From positions 780,001-812,000 of the forward strand of contig JANQNC010000001.1 in the NCBI GenBank assembly GCA_028279745.1: a DNA stretch of 32,000 nucleotides, in the 5' to 3' direction. Both the position numbers and the translations under genes were made by a program. Origin of the DNA: Candidatus Nanoarchaeia archaeon (lineage in GTDB: Archaea > Nanobdellota > Nanobdellia > Woesearchaeales > JANQNC01). Below the pieces are notes generated by a model. The model was not told the DNA's origin. It saw only the letters and a list, made by a program, of their open reading frames with translations, and did not search any database. Every line of letters starts with the position of its first letter. Position 1 is the first letter of the stretch. Positions 20,020-24,318 of the stretch are shown here, one piece after another.

Positions 20020-21053
20020 CTTCCAATCTGAACAAACTGGTTCTTAATCAGTAAAGCCCTCCACAAGTCATTATCATGAACAATAAAATCATCATACTTA
20101 ATATCATTAAAGTTTTGATGAACATCAAATTCTCTTTTATACTTTCCAACTTTCCTTTCGTTTATTATATTTTCTGGTTGGAGTGTTTTGTAAGTGTGAA
20201 TGTTAGCTTTATCTTTACTTTTTGAGTGTCTATTAAAAGAGAAAGCACCAACTAATTTAGCATTATTTTCACTGACCCTGAAAGTGTTTACCAGATGTGA
20301 TTGTACTTCGCTGTAGTGGCAGTTAGGGTTTTGTTTGATGAATTCTTTAGCATTCCTTAAGTAATTGCTTAGAGCAGGCCTATAGTTAAAATTCCCAGTT
20401 CTTAAAGCACCTAAAGTGTCTGTGGTACACACATTCTTAATATTTACCAAAGCACAAACAATAACTGGATCAAATAGTTTGCCAGCTTTCTTATCAACCA
20501 ACGTAATTCCTTCATCATAACTTAAAGCAGTTCTTTCTTGTTCGTCATGAACTAGACCGAAGAAATAATCAGTAACCCTTATGATTTGAGATTCTAAAGG
20601 GGTTTCATAACCTGCTTTTCCCCTTGGGCCAGAACCATCGTAATTTTCATGGTGGCATAGAACTATATTTTGAATGTCTGGAAATTCTGCAGACAAACCT
20701 TTAACCATGTCAGCGCCTTTTTGTAAGTGATCTCTTTCAACCTCTTTTTCTATCTTTTCTATCTCACTAGGAAACATGTTTTTCTTCATAAGATAGAAAT
20801 CTGCCAATCCTATATTACATAATCTAGCAGCAGTAATTGTGGAGATAACTTTTTCTTCACTTAACCCAAGATCATAACAGATTGTTGTGGCAGTATTGTA
20901 AACAAACTCAGCATTCTTAGCAAGATAAGGGACAGATTCAATCTTCCTGGCAAGTCTACTAAACTCATCAATCTTCCCAACTTTGTTTTTCATGATTTTT
21001 GGGATTCGTTTTTTACTGCTGTTTGAAAAAATATCCATCTTGCGTCTCCTCAT
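20016..21053 (-). CDS. HD-GYP-like domain protein with degenerate metal-binding motifs, plus an unknown C-terminal domain
   Basis: VLCHHENYDGSGPRGKAGYETPLESQIIRVTDYF aligns to the HD-GYP core HHExxDGxGYPxGL...IP...RIxxxxD. The canonical LHDIGK position reads RLCNIGL, so HD has become CN, and GYP has become GPR. Two candidate starts exist: ATG 21053 (GGGAG SD) or ATG 21038 (AGGAG 7 nt upstream). Both overlap the kinase 3' end. Confidence 0.7.
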   Translation of the reverse strand: MRRRKMDIFSNSSKKRIPKIMKNKVGKIDEFSRLARKIESVPYLAKNAEFVYNTATTICYDLGLSEEKVISTITAARLCNIGLADFYLMKKNMFPSEIEKIEKEVERDHLQKGADMVKGLSAEFPDIQNIVLCHHENYDGSGPRGKAGYETPLESQIIRVTDYFFGLVHDEQERTALSYDEGITLVDKKAGKLFDPVIVCALVNIKNVCTTDTLGALRTGNFNYRPALSNYLRNAKEFIKQNPNCHYSEVQSHLVNTFRVSENNAKLVGAFSFNRHSKSKDKANIHTYKTLQPENIINERKVGKYKREFDVHQNFNDIKYDDFIVHDNDLWRALLIKNQFVQIGR

Positions 21054-24000
21054 TAATCTCCCGGTTCATAAATGTGTTTTTCAGATCCTTTTGACTGACT
21101 TTTTTTCTCAGTTTTATTTTTCCTGTGGGAATACTGTAATGTGTTTCAAACTTACCTTGCGAATGTGGTGCTTTATCAACACCGATCCAACTAGAGTTCT
21201 CAACAGGATTAACCTCAACAGTCTTTATATTGTATTGATTAACACTTTCTTTCTTACTTCTTATACCATTATATCTGAAGACATTAATGTCTAATTCATC
21301 TCCAAACTCGCTCTTTGGGATTGTTATTTCATAACAATTTCCTTCAACTGTACCTTGCCATTCAAAACCAAGATCTTTTTCCATCTTGTCAACGAAAGAG
21401 TATATTTTACCGTCTTTACCTAATCCAAAGTAGAATTCAACTTTTTTCTCTTTACCAGTTGTTTCATCTTTGATTGGTTTATTTACCATGAGTTCAATAC
21501 CTTCATTTTCCCAGAAAATACTGCTCCTGGCTTTTTTACCACCTATCTTATTATCATAGCTTATTCTGAAAATAACATTCTCCCTGTCTTGAACAACTTT
21601 CATCAAAGTGGGGTTGTGGCTTAAACCATTATCGCCTTCAACAACGAAACCAGAAGTTGGATTAATCTCATCCCAGTTAACTTTGCCTTTTATGTTTTTC
21701 GCATAATACTCTCTAGTTTCTTTTACAGGATTAAGTTCTCTAAGAGCTTCTAAGAAATAATAATCTCCCCAAACAAGACCGTTCTCGGGATCTCTTGTAA
21801 CATCCCTGCAGCCTTTTCTTAGTAGTGCATCAAATTCATCACCCAGATCAAGATAATGTGTAGTAATTGCTTTAAGGACGTTTATACCTATATTTCTATA
21901 GTAATTCTTTTCCCCTTTTTCTTTACATCTTTGACTTAATTTTATAAAACCATAAGCTAGCATACTGTTGCCTGCAGAATTTTCAATTGCTTCAGCTTTA
22001 GGATCATTAAATCCAAAATTAATCAAATTATCTTCTCCTAATTCTTTAATTGCAACACCTGCAATTATCTTAGCATTTTCTAAGTATTTTGGATCCCCAA
22101 TTTTTTCATCTAAGTGACTTAGACCAGAAATTGCAGTTCCGTAACCATAAGTGTAACTACCTTCTTTATTGAACCCACTCATGATACCTAGTTTGACCTT
22201 TGGGGTTCTCAGATCTGGTTCAAACATCATATGTCTATATAATGAACCGTCAGGTTTAACTAGATGTTTTAAGAACGCTTCAGCGTTGTTAATCCAAGCT
22301 TCTAAGTAGCCCTTATCTCCAACTTCTTCATAACCTGTTGCCAATATTTTTGTGTCTGTTAAAGAAAGAACGCTGTGTTTGTCTTTCCACTCATCAGAGT
22401 TAAGAGTATCTTCCCAAGGTATGAAATTTCCGTTGTATCTTTTCATGAAAGAATCACAGATTACTTTTAGGGTTTCATAATCCTTAACTTTGTTAACAAA
22501 AGCAACTTCACCTATATCAGTTCCGATGTTTGCTTTACTTATGGATCTGTAAAGTGACAAAGGAGGTTTCCAAGCATCAGTCTGATCTCTAACAACTGCG
22601 TGCCAGATAAGGCCAATAGGTTCTTTATTAATGTCTTGACTTTGCCAGTTACCTTTATTGTCTGTAACTGAGTAATATTTTGAAGGATCAAGTTTTTTAC
22701 TTATCCTTTCAACTTTAGATTCTTTAGCATATGTGTATAGTAAGTTTAGATCTTTTGCAAGAACTGCAGGATCGTTTTCAGTTTCTATCTTTTCTTTAAG
22801 TAAGTTTGCAACTCTTTTTTCTAAACTGTTATCTAACCTATCTATTTCTACAGCTCTTTCTTTGAAACTTTCAGAATCTGGCCAGTTTAAGATGTGGTTT
22901 TTGTTTTTTCTTCTGGTTTCATCGATCTGTTTATCTGCATTAGTTAGTTTGTCTATTGCGAAATCAGTTTCTAGCTCTTCAGAATTCTTAAGGGACAGTC
23001 TAACTTCTTCTATATTGTTGTCTATACTTTTGATTGCTTGAGCTTCCTTTGCAAAAAGATTCCAACCAATATAAACACCCCCTCCAATTATGAGTGCGGC
23101 AACAGTTGAAAGTGCAGTTACTGTAACTTTTTTATACAAATCCCATGCATAATGCTTGATAAGATTTTTTATTCCGTATCTTGCATTAACTTCTCTGCCT
23201 TCTTTTAATCTTTTAAGATCTTCATGAAACTCTAGACCAGATTGATATCTGTCCCGTCTATCGAATGAGATTGATTTTAAGATAACTCTTTCAAGGTCTT
23301 TGTTGATGCTTGGGTCAAATTCAGATGGCCAAAAATGTCTTATTTTTGGGTCGCTGATACGTGCCATTAGTCTTCGGTAGTCTGCACCTCTAGTGTCATA
23401 AGGGAACCCACCCCTTGTAACGCATGTAAATAAGGTGACACCTAAAGAATAAAGGTCATCAGAAGGCTCTAATCTTTGCCCATCACAGTTCTGAGGGCTC
23501 ATGTATCCGGGGCTTCCTAGAACATCACCTTTCATCGTCAGGGATCTTTGCGCGTCATCTCTTGCAATGCCGAAGTCAGTTATCTTATATCTGCCATCGG
23601 CGCCTTTACCTACATTTGCGGGTTTGATGTCTCTATGTATCAAGTTTAGATTGTGCAAATACTGAAGGCCTTTTGATGTATCCATGCCTGCTTTAAGTAT
23701 GTCTTCTAAAGGTATTGTCAAAGGAATTATTTCACTTTCTTCCAGAAGCTCCATCGCATAAAACATAAGATCTTTTGGATTTCCCGTATCTTTGTCTATC
23801 AAGTTATAATTTTCGTGAGAATCAAATATTTGGACTACATTCAAAAAACCATAACCTTGTCGTTCATCTAAATTTTTACCTTTAAGCAAAAGTTCTTTCA
23901 TATCCTTTCTTGCTTTTTCTGATTGGTCAGATACTGTTTCTAATGATCTTCTCTCACTGTTAAAACGTTCAAATCGTTCATCATCACAAAGCTCTTTATA

Positions 24001-24318
24001 AGAATCTCCTACTTTTTTATAACTCCAGTTTTCAAGTATTTTACGTTCAAGAATTTTAACTGCAAATAACTTGCCGTCTTTTTCACCAAGATAAACTTGG
24101 TTAAACGCTCCAGCCCCCAGCCCTTTAGTTAACTTATAACCTTCAAGCATGGTATTTTCATAAGCAAAATTAATTTTTTTCTTTTTTATCATGCTTTGCT
24201 GCATGGTATTACTACTGATTGTCTGATCGATTATGCCCTTTGGGATTTCATAAGTTCGGATACCTAAGAATTTCTTAACAGATTCACTTTTTAGTAATTT
24301 TTCTAGGGGGGGAAACAT
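21013..24318 (-). CDS. Hanks-type Ser/Thr protein kinase, single TM, coiled coil, extracytoplasmic GH88-like (unsaturated glucuronyl hydrolase fold) and CBM9-like domains
   Basis: The track start at 24327 is TTG; the first ATG is at 24318. Kinase motifs are GLGAGAFNQVY, FAVKIL, LIHRDIKPANV, ITDFGIA and GSPGYMSPQ. The TM segment is VTVTALSTVAALIIGGGVYIGWNLF (residues about 399-425). The GH88 hallmark LVWGDYYFLEALRELN and AIENSAGNSMLAYGFIKL are present. The C-terminal WDEINP...LMKVVQDRENVIFRISYDN...GIELMVN fits a CBM9-like pattern. Confidence 0.8.
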   Translation of the reverse strand: MFPPLEKLLKSESVKKFLGIRTYEIPKGIIDQTISSNTMQQSMIKKKKINFAYENTMLEGYKLTKGLGAGAFNQVYLGEKDGKLFAVKILERKILENWSYKKVGDSYKELCDDERFERFNSERRSLETVSDQSEKARKDMKELLLKGKNLDERQGYGFLNVVQIFDSHENYNLIDKDTGNPKDLMFYAMELLEESEIIPLTIPLEDILKAGMDTSKGLQYLHNLNLIHRDIKPANVGKGADGRYKITDFGIARDDAQRSLTMKGDVLGSPGYMSPQNCDGQRLEPSDDLYSLGVTLFTCVTRGGFPYDTRGADYRRLMARISDPKIRHFWPSEFDPSINKDLERVILKSISFDRRDRYQSGLEFHEDLKRLKEGREVNARYGIKNLIKHYAWDLYKKVTVTALSTVAALIIGGGVYIGWNLFAKEAQAIKSIDNNIEEVRLSLKNSEELETDFAIDKLTNADKQIDETRRKNKNHILNWPDSESFKERAVEIDRLDNSLEKRVANLLKEKIETENDPAVLAKDLNLLYTYAKESKVERISKKLDPSKYYSVTDNKGNWQSQDINKEPIGLIWHAVVRDQTDAWKPPLSLYRSISKANIGTDIGEVAFVNKVKDYETLKVICDSFMKRYNGNFIPWEDTLNSDEWKDKHSVLSLTDTKILATGYEEVGDKGYLEAWINNAEAFLKHLVKPDGSLYRHMMFEPDLRTPKVKLGIMSGFNKEGSYTYGYGTAISGLSHLDEKIGDPKYLENAKIIAGVAIKELGEDNLINFGFNDPKAEAIENSAGNSMLAYGFIKLSQRCKEKGEKNYYRNIGINVLKAITTHYLDLGDEFDALLRKGCRDVTRDPENGLVWGDYYFLEALRELNPVKETREYYAKNIKGKVNWDEINPTSGFVVEGDNGLSHNPTLMKVVQDRENVIFRISYDNKIGGKKARSSIFWENEGIELMVNKPIKDETTGKEKKVEFYFGLGKDGKIYSFVDKMEKDLGFEWQGTVEGNCYEITIPKSEFGDELDINVFRYNGIRSKKESVNQYNIKTVEVNPVENSSWIGVDKAPHSQGKFETHYSIPTGKIKLRKKVSQKDLKNTFMNREINEETQDGYFFKQQ

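What the first reader, a model, noticed from the sequence alone, without database searches (positions are those of the whole stretch)
21013..24318. Hanks kinase fused through one TM helix to a glycoside-hydrolase-family-88-like ectodomain and a CBM9-like domain
Seen directly:
- Residues about 63-375 carry all the Hanks motifs (G-loop, VAIK Lys, HRDIKPAN, DFG, SPGYMSPQ).
- A single hydrophobic helix spans residues about 399-425, followed by a roughly 110-aa heptad-like charged region.
- The next region ends in LVWGDYYFLEALRELN. This is nearly the C-terminal hallmark of unsaturated glucuronyl hydrolases (IWGDYYYLEAL in the Bacillus GL1 enzyme, from memory).
- A beta-rich CBM9-like domain follows.

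A sensor kinase that uses a whole GH88 fold as its ligand-binding module is an architecture I do not recall being described. The kinase also has an insertion of about 70 aa after the catalytic Lys (residues about 92-165). A TDIG motif (residues about 603-606) may correspond to the catalytic HDIG Asp of GH88, so it is open whether the ectodomain hydrolyses its ligand or only binds it.
Basis: partly seen in the sequence, partly recalled or inferred. Interest (0 to 1): 0.7.

Follow-up and report, generated by a model that had tools for sequence, protein, structure and literature searches.

The report
Archaeal receptor kinase, degenerate GH88 ectodomain
An uncultivated archaeon encodes a membrane-spanning Ser/Thr protein kinase whose outside part is a diverged copy of a sugar-cleaving enzyme fold (GH88) that has lost most active-site residues, so it most likely works as a sensor; related fusions occur in other archaea and none was described in the literature searches run here.

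Summary
The ORF is real: minus strand 21013-24318, 1101 aa. It reads as follows:
- a Hanks kinase with all catalytic motifs
- one TM helix (397-423)
- a helical stalk
- a GH88-like (alpha/alpha)6 domain (about 515-864)
- a beta-rich domain (865-1062)

GH88 homology is significant. Bacillus GL1 UGL scores E 7e-13 by sequence, a canonical GH88 scores E 1.6e-20, and Foldseek gives E 5e-16 with TM 0.75.

The UGL active site is mostly gone:
- Asp149 is replaced by Leu651 (Ser652 in another alignment).
- The Trp42/Phe46 loop is deleted.
- His193, Gln211, Trp219, Arg221, Trp225, Tyr338 and His339 are all replaced.
- Only the Asp88 equivalent (Asp601) survives.

Binding is therefore more likely than canonical hydrolysis. 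"CBM9-like" has only weak fold-level support.

The host is an archaeon (archaeal RNase P and SRP RNAs, archaeal ribosomal cluster).

The protein is not unique:
- An ortholog (P0015, 1053 aa) sits in a related genome. There too it lies next to a class III cyclase gene and an HD-GYP gene, near LeuRS.
- Seven shorter kinase-like-GH88 clusters occur in other metagenomes; the two whose contigs were examined are archaeal.

Best reading: a receptor kinase that couples an unknown surface ligand, probably a glycan, to cyclic-nucleotide signalling. It is a new variant of a known kind, of moderate interest.

The parts
21013..24318 (-). Whole CDS, 1101 aa plus stop (= P0001): receptor-type Hanks kinase with GH88-like ectodomain
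   Evidence: ORF list. The identical protein is called on a Logan contig and on an NCBI contig of 1.30 Mb.
23179..24147 (-). Hanks Ser/Thr kinase domain, residues about 58-380: G-loop 66-72, Lys88, HRD 228-230, DFG 248-250, SPQ in place of APE at 274-276
   Evidence: Pfam Pkinase E 1.4e-23. NCBIfam PknB-type model 127 bits. PDB PknB E 2e-21. Motifs read from the sequence.
23884..24033 (-). N-lobe insertion of about 45-50 aa, residues about 96-145, between the beta3 Lys and helix alphaC/beta4. It is charged, and the ortholog has it in a shorter form.
   Evidence: Alignment offsets to PknB and Stk1. Pair alignment with P0015. The boundaries are approximate.
23050..23130 (-). Single transmembrane helix, residues 397-423, in N-in/C-out orientation
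   Evidence: It is the only segment above the hydropathy threshold. Lys/Arg residues are enriched on the N-terminal flank and acidic residues on the C-terminal flank. P0015 has a TM segment at the same position.
22777..23049 (-). Extracellular helical stalk, residues 424-514
   Evidence: AF2 predicts helices at 431-444, 452-471 and 483-513, with pLDDT about 50-75. The region is 26% identical to P0015.
21727..22776 (-). GH88-like (alpha/alpha)6 domain, residues about 515-864. Asp601 is kept. The Asp149 position is Leu651 (Ser652 in the MAFFT alignment). The Trp42/Phe46 loop is deleted. Arg221 is replaced by Tyr724.
   Evidence: PDB phmmer E 7e-13. Custom GH88 HMM 146 bits over residues 623-864. 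Foldseek against UGL E 5e-16, TMt 0.75. Residue map.
21133..21726 (-). C-terminal beta-rich domain, residues 865-1062, conserved in P0015 (28% identity). Possibly a CBM9-like beta-sandwich; identity unresolved.
   Evidence: AF2 gives ten strands, pLDDT 55, pTM 0.61. The Foldseek top hit is CBM9 7nwo at E 1e-3, TM 0.39, mixed with Ig domains. There is no Pfam or PDB sequence hit. Shuffle test z is about 0.2.
21016..21132 (-). Lys/Glu-rich C-terminal tail, residues 1063-1101, absent from the ortholog
   Evidence: Pair alignment.
24324..25613 (-). Upstream gene in the same direction: class III nucleotide cyclase (429 aa). Its stop codon lies 5 nt before the kinase ATG.
   Evidence: Pfam Guanylate_cyc E 3.9e-18. 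A homologous cyclase lies next to the ortholog.
20016..21053 (-). Downstream gene that overlaps the 3' end of the kinase gene: HD-GYP-type (HD_5) phosphodiesterase-like protein (345 aa). Its GYP motif is degenerate (HHENYDGSGPRG).
   Evidence: Pfam HD_5 E 3.4e-18. NCBIfam c-di-GMP phosphodiesterase-type model E 6e-21. A homolog with a canonical HHERIDGTGYP lies next to the ortholog.
13155..20019 (-). Four further tightly packed genes in the same direction. They encode proteins with signal-like N-termini: 610 aa (weak thioredoxin-like), 582 aa, 188 aa (also a C-terminal anchor) and 864 aa (C13/caspase-like, Ig-like domains, Por_Secre_tail). Whether they belong to the module is uncertain; they are not seen next to the ortholog, where the contig ends.
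   Evidence: ORFs with 4-nt overlaps. Pfam and NCBIfam hits. N-termini. No PDB relatives.

Best explanation
The gene encodes a receptor-type Hanks Ser/Thr kinase of an uncultivated archaeon.

Shown
- A kinase domain that is catalytically complete by motif lies N-terminal to the only TM helix, so the C-terminal 678 residues are outside the cell.
- That outside part consists of a helical stalk, a full-length but strongly diverged GH88 (alpha/alpha)6 barrel, and a conserved beta-rich domain.
- The barrel keeps the fold and the C-terminal GDYYFLEAL signature. It has lost the Asp149 general acid, the Trp42/Phe46 stacking loop, and the residues that hold the unsaturated uronate.
- The gene is flanked by, and tightly packed with, a class III cyclase gene and an HD-GYP gene. 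The same trio sits next to LeuRS in a related genome.

Inferred
- The barrel has been re-used as a non-catalytic ligand-binding sensor. The ligand is most likely a glycan or other surface polymer and differs from classical UGL substrates. The beta domain may assist binding.
- Ligand binding is relayed through the stalk and TM helix, probably by a change in dimerisation. This would drive autophosphorylation of the activation loop (Ser259/Thr261 region).
- The kinase then phosphorylates cytoplasmic targets. The co-encoded cyclase and HD-GYP phosphodiesterase are the prime candidates, so the outside signal would become a cyclic-nucleotide signal.
For: Kinase
- Motifs intact; Pfam, NCBIfam and PDB matches.

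Topology
- Single TM segment with positive-inside flanks, conserved in P0015.

GH88 homology
- E 7e-13 to 1vd5/2ahf.
- E 1.6e-20 to canonical P0014; 523 hits in all.
- 146 bits against an HMM built from 73 canonical GH88 sequences.
- The AF2 model matches UGL over 366 of 377 residues at E 5e-16, with GH76 and GH105 about eight orders of magnitude weaker.

Loss of the catalytic pocket
- Asp149 to Leu651 by HMM, or Ser652 by MAFFT.
- His193 to Arg695, Gln211 to Ser714, Trp219 to Tyr722, Arg221 to Tyr724, Trp225 to Thr728, Tyr338 to Arg838, His339 to Asp839.
- The WTSGF loop is deleted and Asp88 is kept as Asp601.
- PMC4528949 names Asp149, His193, Asp88, Phe46 and Trp42 as the functional residues.
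- These pocket positions also differ between P0001 and P0015. Meanwhile the domain as a whole stays 24% identical, similar to the stalk (26%) and the beta domain (28%).
- Pfam's GH88 model does not detect the domain even at E<=10.

Module
- The cyclase stop codon is 5 nt before the kinase start, and the HD gene overlaps the kinase 3' end.
- The ortholog locus L004 carries cyclase, HD_5 and kinase next to a LeuRS that is 54% identical to the window's. BLAST E-values between the two loci are 2e-16 (cyclase), 1e-12 (HD) and 3e-57 (kinase).

Precedents for GH-like sensor modules
- RsgI6 with its GH10 module (PMC4711584).
- Plant GH18 receptor kinases (PMC5485988).
Against: - No ligand, binding or phosphorylation has been tested.
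- The residue map for the N-terminal third of the barrel rests on MAFFT and pair alignments only. The GH88 HMM does not align that part, and the AF2 model is weak there, with pLDDT 44-57.
- The model coordinates could not be inspected. Whether Asp601 and Asp655 line a pocket is therefore unknown.
- An Asp at the Asn153 position is conserved in both long forms (Asp655 and Asp670). P0015 also has Glu at the Asp149 position. A relocated acid, and hence catalysis, is not excluded.
- The link between kinase, cyclase and HD-GYP is supported by only two loci, and the gene order differs between them.
- The AF2 model was built with a GH88 MSA, so the fold match is not independent of the sequence match.
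Confidence: 0.6

Rival explanations
1. The ectodomain is still an enzyme. It would be a membrane-anchored GH88-derived hydrolase or hydratase with a re-built active site, for example Asp601 plus Asp655 (Glu666/Asp670 in the ortholog), acting on a different substrate. The kinase would report substrate turnover, or would simply be co-anchored.
For: - The Asp88 equivalent is retained in both long forms.
- An Asp that is not present in canonical GH88 or in the short forms is conserved at the Asn153 position, one helical turn after position 149.
- P0015 has Glu at the Asp149 position.
- RsgI6's GH10 module keeps very low catalytic activity.
Against: - Ten of twelve residues in the -1 subsite or with catalytic roles are replaced or deleted.
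- The replacements differ between the two orthologs. A conserved catalytic pocket would not be expected to vary like this.
- The Arg221 position, which in UGL faces the uronate (role from memory), is replaced by Tyr in P0001 and Asn in P0015.
Confidence: 0.15
2. The ectodomain does not bind sugar. The degenerate barrel and the beta domain would instead serve as a protein-protein interaction or structural module, for example docking to S-layer proteins, to host-cell surface proteins, or to the secreted proteins encoded downstream.
For: - The canonical sugar pocket is not conserved, even between the two orthologs.
- Four genes for proteins with signal-like N-termini follow in the same direction, including a C13/caspase-like surface protein.
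- The beta domain gives Ig-like fold matches as strong as the CBM9 matches.
Against: - The (alpha/alpha)6 GH folds and the possible CBM9-like domain are typical carbohydrate binders.
- A Tyr-rich SYTYGYG stretch replaces the WSRGQAWG pocket wall, and aromatic residues are typical of sugar-binding sites.
- The downstream genes are not seen next to the ortholog, although the contig ends there.
Confidence: 0.15
3. The kinase, cyclase and HD proteins form an antiviral defence system of the Pycsar or kinase-based type rather than an environmental sensor.
For: - PADLOC kinase models PD-T4-6 and mad6 hit the kinase domain, up to E 4e-40.
- PycC cyclase models hit the cyclase weakly, at E 3.5e-9.
Against: - These are generic kinase-domain and cyclase-domain similarities, comparable to the 127 bits against the PknB-type NCBIfam model.
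- The HD protein and the other neighbours give no PADLOC hit.
- The locus lies next to LeuRS and a ribosomal protein cluster in two genomes whose LeuRS proteins are only 54% identical, which is not a variable defence island.
- A 678-residue extracellular part, most of it ordered domains, fits a defence kinase poorly (from general knowledge; the PADLOC kinase models hit here are about 290-660 positions long).
Confidence: 0.05

Closest known systems
GH88 unsaturated glucuronyl hydrolases (Bacillus sp. GL1 UGL, PDB 1vd5/2fv0; S. agalactiae UGL, 2zzr/3ani; heparin-specific UGL, 3wiw)
   Same: - Homologous (alpha/alpha)6 barrel of nearly full length.
- C-terminal GDYYFLEAL signature.
- The Asp of the HDxGF motif is retained.
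   Different: - Asp149, His193, Gln211, Trp219, Arg221, Trp225, Tyr338 and His339 are replaced, and the Trp42/Phe46 loop is deleted.
- Pfam PF07470 does not detect the domain.
- The domain is extracellular and fused to a kinase. Unsaturated glycoside hydrolases are described as intracellular (PMC4528949).
- Activity is unlikely to be canonical.
Bacterial receptor Hanks kinases with PASTA ectodomains (PknB, PrkC, StkP, Stk1)
   Same: - Same overall logic and topology: cytoplasmic Hanks kinase, juxtamembrane linker, one TM helix, extracellular domain that binds a cell-envelope ligand.
- The kinase domain is most similar to PknB and Stk1.
   Different: - No PASTA repeats are present. The NCBIfam PASTA-kinase model reaches 127 bits against a cut-off of 450 and matches only the kinase part.
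- The sensor is a GH88-derived barrel plus a beta domain.
- The N-lobe carries a 45-50 aa insertion.
- The host is an archaeon.
Clostridium thermocellum RsgI anti-sigma factors, especially RsgI6 with a GH10 sensing module
   Same: A glycoside-hydrolase family fold with very low catalytic activity is re-used as the extracytoplasmic polysaccharide-sensing module of a single-pass transmembrane signalling protein (PMC4711584).
   Different: - In RsgI the output is anti-sigma release by proteolysis, not phosphorylation.
- RsgI uses the GH10 TIM-barrel fold, not a GH88 (alpha/alpha)6 barrel.
- RsgI is bacterial.
Plant receptor-like kinases with GH18 (chitinase-like) ectodomains, e.g. tobacco CHRK1
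   Same: A Ser/Thr kinase is fused through one TM helix to an extracellular glycoside-hydrolase-family domain (PMC5485988).
   Different: - The plant proteins are eukaryotic.
- They use the GH18 fold.
- They have no evolutionary relation in the ectodomain.
Unannotated short kinase-like-GH88 proteins from metagenomes (P0055, P0063, P0089, P0141, P0148; fragments P0038, P0065), 635-661 aa
   Same: - N-terminal kinase-like domain, one hydrophobic segment, GH88-like C-terminal domain.
- The two whose contigs were examined (P0063, P0089) lie in archaeal genomic contexts.
   Different: - No stalk and no beta domain.
- The HRD motif is degenerate (HED, HND or HHD), DFG is DLGG or DFGG, and the C-lobe is truncated, so they may be pseudokinases.
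- A Tat-like RRxF motif precedes the hydrophobic segment.
- Their GH88 part keeps Trp42, Phe46, Arg221 and mostly Asp149, but loses Asp88.
- No cyclase or HD neighbours are present.

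Membership tests
Hanks-type (eukaryotic-like) Ser/Thr protein kinases | Gly-rich loop, beta3 Lys, HRD catalytic loop with Lys/Asn (HRDxKxxN), and DFG | tested here: met
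   GLGAGAF 66-72, Lys88, HRDIKPAN 228-235 and DFG 248-250 are read from the sequence. Pfam Pkinase scores 84 bits against a cut-off of 31.7.
Hanks-type (eukaryotic-like) Ser/Thr protein kinases | APE motif and conserved C-lobe (DxWSxG, Arg of subdomain XI) | tested here: met
   The C-lobe aligns to PknB residues 122-284 at E 2e-21. DLYSLG and RDRYQ are present. APE is SPQ here (Glu replaced by Gln), whereas the ortholog has SPE.
Hanks-type (eukaryotic-like) Ser/Thr protein kinases | Phosphotransfer activity | not testable with these tools
   This needs an in vitro autophosphorylation assay.
CAZy GH88 (unsaturated glucuronyl hydrolase) | Sequence and fold homology to the GH88 (alpha/alpha)6 barrel | tested here: met
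   PDB UGL E 7e-13. Canonical GH88 E 1.6e-20. Custom GH88 HMM 146 bits. Foldseek E 5e-16, TMt 0.75. Pfam PF07470 itself gives no hit at E<=10.
CAZy GH88 (unsaturated glucuronyl hydrolase) | General acid/base Asp149 (Bacillus numbering) in the IID motif | tested here: not met
   The position is Leu651 by HMM and phmmer, or Ser652 by MAFFT. The nearest Asp is Asp655, at the Asn153 position.
CAZy GH88 (unsaturated glucuronyl hydrolase) | Second conserved Asp88 in the HDxGF motif | tested here: inconclusive
   Asp601 (TDIG) aligns with it in MAFFT and in the pair alignment with P0015, whose Asp608 the HMM does align to Asp88. The GH88 HMM does not align this part of P0001 itself.
CAZy GH88 (unsaturated glucuronyl hydrolase) | Residues of the -1 subsite: Trp42, Phe46, His193, Gln211, Trp219, Arg221, Trp225, Tyr338, His339 | tested here: not met
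   The Trp42/Phe46 loop is deleted. The remaining positions read Arg695, Ser714, Tyr722, Tyr724, Thr728, Arg838 and Asp839. The roles of Asp149, His193, Asp88, Phe46 and Trp42 are taken from PMC4528949. The other residues are recalled from memory of the UGL structure papers; their positions match the motifs seen.
CAZy GH88 (unsaturated glucuronyl hydrolase) | Hydrolysis of unsaturated glucuronyl saccharides | not testable with these tools
   This needs an enzyme assay.
CBM9 carbohydrate-binding module | Match to Pfam CBM9 models or to solved CBM9 sequences | tested here: not met
   No Pfam hit at E<=10 for either ortholog. No PDB sequence or profile hit. hhalign against P0108's CBM9 and against 1i82 gives probability <=1%. 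Smith-Waterman against shuffles gives z about 0.2.
CBM9 carbohydrate-binding module | CBM9-type beta-sandwich fold | tested here: inconclusive
PASTA-domain receptor kinases (PknB/Stk1 family) | Extracellular PASTA repeats | tested here: not met
   The NCBIfam PknB_PASTA_kin model reaches 127 bits against a cut-off of 450 and matches only residues 161-380. No PASTA Pfam hit.
Known antiphage systems (PADLOC: PD-T4-6, MADS, Pycsar) | Complete gene set, or specific non-generic model hits across the locus | tested here: not met
   Only generic kinase and weak PycC cyclase hits appear. The HD protein and the other neighbours give none.

The most novel reading that the evidence does not exclude
Small-genome uncultivated archaea would carry a previously unrecognised class of surface receptors. 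In these, a decayed GH88 barrel, alone or with a CBM9-like module, reads a specific glycan on the environment or on a host or partner cell. The signal would be transmitted through a Hanks kinase to a dedicated cyclase and HD-GYP second-messenger pair. That would be a glycan to phosphorylation to cyclic-nucleotide pathway in Archaea, and a candidate host-recognition system.
Probability: 0.3. Interest if true: 0.8.

Novelty: new variant of a known kind. Interest (0 to 1): 0.55.

Why it matters
- To my knowledge (not settled by the literature searches run here), almost nothing is known about what archaeal Hanks kinases sense, and cyclic-nucleotide signalling in Archaea is poorly charted.
- This locus offers a concrete, testable chain: an extracellular GH-derived sensor, a kinase, and a co-conserved cyclase and HD-GYP pair.
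- It adds GH88 to the short list of glycoside-hydrolase folds re-used as signalling sensors, alongside GH10 in RsgI6 and GH18 in plant receptor kinases.
- The same fusion idea appears in two separate architectural forms among uncultivated microbes, archaeal wherever the context was checked.
- For annotation, it is a warning. A GH88 call on this protein would predict a polysaccharide-degrading activity that the active-site residues do not support.

Tried and rejected
- Pfam on the ectodomain and on sub-fragments at E<=10 gave no GH88 or CBM9 hit, only noise such as DUF2621.
- The word-indexed homolog searches were largely unproductive.
  - The first found only the protein itself plus 6 GH88 proteins, and it missed the true ortholog.
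  - The profile search returned 11 proteins.
  - The search with the C-terminal domain profile returned nothing, not even the query.
- The genome-contig scan did not find the source genome or orthologs; it returned only an unrelated Flavobacteriaceae kinase. The organism name is therefore unknown.
- Cluster look-ups carry no names.
- The LeuRS look-up found no record.
- The SRA accession is in no paper.
- The metagenome-contig scan with the ectodomain alignment gave no relatives.
- CBM9 tests by sequence were all at chance: hhalign against P0108, a PDB profile search, hhalign against 1i82 plus P0108 and a shuffle test.
- Promoter and terminator scans are uninformative: counts equal the shuffled expectation and the consensus is bacterial.
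- Neighbour proteins of 610 aa and 582 aa have no PDB relatives, apart from a marginal thioredoxin-like stretch.
- Literature searches for a described kinase-GH88 or kinase-six-hairpin sensor found nothing relevant. This is absence of evidence within the held library only.
- The defence-system reading was considered and rejected as the main explanation, because only generic domain hits appear and the location is conserved next to housekeeping genes.

Full report
**Observation**

The window carries an ORF on the minus strand at 21013..24318, starting with ATG and encoding 1101 aa.

The identical protein (P0001) is recorded once, on an NCBI contig of 1.30 Mb and on a Logan contig.

The sequence shows the following features:
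- G-loop GLGAGAF at 66-72.
- FAVK with Lys88.
- HRDIKPAN at 228-235.
- DFG at 248-250.
- SPGYMSPQ at 269-276.
- A single strongly hydrophobic segment at 397-423.
- LVWGDYYFLEALRELN at 848-863.
- TDIG at 600-603.

Pfam detects only the kinase (E 1.4e-23). The closest solved kinases are PknB (E 2e-21) and Stk1. Alignment offsets to them put the N-lobe insertion at about 45-50 aa, not about 70.

**Host**

The window also contains several archaeal markers:
- An archaeal RNase P RNA (152 bits) and an archaeal SRP RNA (137 bits).
- The archaeal S4, RpoD(Rpb3), L18e, L13, S9, RpoN gene cluster.

The organism is therefore an archaeon with about 35% GC and a contig of 1.30 Mb. Its lineage could not be named. 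A DPANN-like small-genome lifestyle is a guess, not a result.

**GH88-like domain**

The homology to GH88 is real and well above chance:
- phmmer of residues 521-1101 against all PDB sequences gives E 7e-13 to Bacillus GL1 UGL and E 6e-10 to S. agalactiae UGL.
- An exhaustive phmmer search of 1.84 billion cluster representatives gives 523 hits. The best canonical GH88 scores E 1.6e-20 at 31% identity. This is P0014, from a bacterial sugar-utilisation locus.
- An HMM built from 73 canonical-length hits scores 146 bits on residues 623-864.
- An AF2 model of the ectodomain has mean pLDDT 57. The C-terminal half of the barrel reaches 80-93 and the N-terminal third only 44-57.
- That model contains the expected 12-13 helices. 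It matches UGL structures over 366 of 377 residues (E 5e-16, TMt 0.75). GH76 and GH105 follow at about 1e-7.

The domain begins near residue 515, so the last part of the 'heptad' region is the first barrel helix. Residues 424-514 form a helical stalk.

**Active site**

According to PMC4528949, UGL function depends on Asp149, His193, Asp88 and Phe46, with Trp42 stacking on the substrate.

The numbering in the PDB alignment fixes these equivalences:

| Bacillus UGL residue | P0001 residue |
|---|---|
| His193 | Arg695 |
| Gln211 | Ser714 |
| Trp219 | Tyr722 |
| Arg221 | Tyr724 |
| Trp225 | Thr728 |
| Tyr338 | Arg838 |
| His339 | Asp839 |

Further points:
- Asp149 of the IID motif aligns to Leu651 by phmmer and by the HMM, or to Ser652 by MAFFT.
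- The conserved Asn153 position is Asp655.
- The WTSGF loop that carries Trp42 and Phe46 is deleted.
- Only Asp88 has a plausible survivor, Asp601. That rests on MAFFT and on the pair alignment to the ortholog. The HMM does not align this region of P0001.
- Pfam's GH88 model fails at E<=10.

The fold is kept, but the canonical unsaturated-uronate pocket is not.

**Relatives**

The protein has one true ortholog, P0015 (1053 aa, E 3.5e-18):
- It has the same order of parts: kinase with an N-lobe insertion, TM segment at 401-419, stalk, GH88-like domain and beta domain.
- It is 24% identical to P0001 over 962 aa (E 3e-57).
- Identity by region is 35% for the kinase, 26% for the stalk, 24% for the GH88-like domain and 28% for the beta domain.
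- It comes from the same sample but from a different organism, since the two LeuRS proteins are 54% identical.
- Its gene lies directly after a class III cyclase gene and an HD_5 gene, near LeuRS.

In the window the order is cyclase, kinase, HD_5, also next to LeuRS. There are 5 nt between the cyclase stop and the kinase start, and the HD gene overlaps the kinase 3' end. The trio is thus conserved across considerable divergence.

The pocket positions differ between the two orthologs. Position 149 is Leu in one and Glu in the other, position 221 is Tyr or Asn, and position 225 is Thr or Phe. Asp88, the Asp at position 153 and the Arg at position 193 are shared.

A second group was also found:
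- It comprises seven 50%-identity clusters (five full-length, 635-661 aa, and two N-terminally cut fragments).
- Each member has a kinase-like N-terminal domain with a degenerate HRD motif, a hydrophobic segment preceded by RRxF, and a GH88-like C-terminal domain.
- The two members looked up (P0063, P0089) lie in archaeal genomic contexts, with diphthamide synthase and the archaeal ThrRS editing domain.

The fusion of a kinase to a GH88-like domain therefore recurs. Literature searches found no description of it.

**C-terminal domain**

- It is conserved in the ortholog and is predicted to have ten strands. The model is poor, with pLDDT 55 and pTM 0.61.
- Foldseek's best PDB hits are CBM9 modules: 7nwo at E 1e-3 with TM 0.39, and 1i82 with TM 0.41. 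Ig and VHH domains score almost as well.
- Every sequence test is at chance.

'CBM9-like' remains a lead, not a finding.

**Mechanism**

Shown:
- The domain order and the single TM segment.
- An intact set of kinase motifs.
- A GH88 fold with a decayed active site.
- A conserved neighbourhood with cyclase and HD-GYP genes.

Inferred:
- Topology is N-in/C-out, because the kinase needs cytoplasmic ATP and the flanking charges agree.
- The barrel, perhaps together with the beta domain, binds an extracellular ligand. The ligand is most likely a glycan, but not a classical UGL substrate.
- The stalk and TM helix relay binding to the kinase.
- The kinase acts on the co-encoded cyclase and/or HD-GYP phosphodiesterase and so sets a cyclic-nucleotide level.

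Precedents for glycoside-hydrolase folds serving as sensors:
- The GH10 module of the anti-sigma factor RsgI6, which binds xylan with very low activity (PMC4711584).
- Plant GH18 receptor kinases (PMC5485988).

Rivals:
- A re-built active site using Asp601 and Asp655, probability about 0.15.
- A non-glycan, protein-binding role, about 0.15.
- A defence system, about 0.05, because only generic PADLOC hits appear.

**Verdict**

This is a new variant of a known kind, a receptor Hanks kinase with a new sensor module, found in archaea and belonging to a small, unannotated family. Interest is moderate at 0.55. It would rise substantially if a ligand and the kinase-to-cyclic-nucleotide link were demonstrated.

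Noticed in passing
window 4116-4407 (+), 31136-31407 (-), 7966-8037 (-): The window holds an archaeal RNase P RNA (152 bits), an archaeal SRP RNA (137 bits) and a tRNA-His(GTG).
   Followed up: yes
window 13155-15749 (-): An 864-aa protein with a signal-like N-terminus carries a C13/caspase-like peptidase region, several bacterial Ig-like domains and a Por_Secre_tail domain (T9SS type A sorting, E 1e-11). To my knowledge that sorting domain belongs to Bacteroidota secretion substrates, so finding it in an archaeal genome is odd. It may reflect horizontal transfer or a different use of the domain.
   Followed up: partly
L005 8001-9977; L007, L008 8001-9908; L009 3456-5363 (proteins P0063, P0089; also P0055, P0141, P0148): A family of shorter proteins (635-661 aa) from metagenomes joins a kinase-like domain to a GH88-like domain. 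HRD is degenerate (HED, HND or HHD) and DFG is DLGG or DFGG. The single hydrophobic segment is preceded by a twin-arginine-like RRxF(L/I/M) motif in the middle of the protein. These proteins may be pseudokinases. Their GH88 part keeps Trp42, Phe46, Arg221 and mostly Asp149, but not Asp88.
   Followed up: partly
window 20016-21053 (-) versus L004 8961-10025 (+): The HD_5 protein in the window has a degenerate GYP motif (HHENYDGSGPRG). Its counterpart next to the orthologous kinase has the canonical HHERIDGTGYP. The window copy may have altered or lost phosphodiesterase specificity.
   Followed up: no
window 24324-25613 (-) versus L004 7408-8964 (+): The two cyclases share only the catalytic domain (28% identity over 243 aa). 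Their N-terminal regions, about 200 aa and about 270 aa, are unrelated, and neither has a Pfam-recognised sensor domain. If the kinase regulates the cyclase, these regions are candidate phosphorylation targets.
   Followed up: no
window 15817-16383 (-), 16442-18190 (-), 18187-20019 (-): Three tightly packed genes lie downstream in the same direction. They encode orphan proteins with signal-like N-termini: 188 aa with an additional C-terminal hydrophobic anchor, 582 aa, and 610 aa with a marginal thioredoxin-like stretch. None has a Pfam, NCBIfam, PADLOC or PDB relative.
   Followed up: partly
window 23884-24033 (-) (kinase residues about 96-145): A charged insertion sits in the kinase N-lobe between the beta3 Lys and alphaC. 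The ortholog P0015 has it too, about 14 residues shorter. Its function is unknown, and because of it Pfam's Pkinase model aligns only from residue 182.
   Followed up: partly
L002 10001-12880 (protein P0003, 959 aa): A bacterial-looking glycosaminoglycan-utilisation locus (heparinase II/III, KduI, DUF4861, GH97) encodes a 959-aa protein. Its N-terminal GH88 domain is fused to a long C-terminal region, and the protein has no precomputed Pfam annotation.
   Followed up: no
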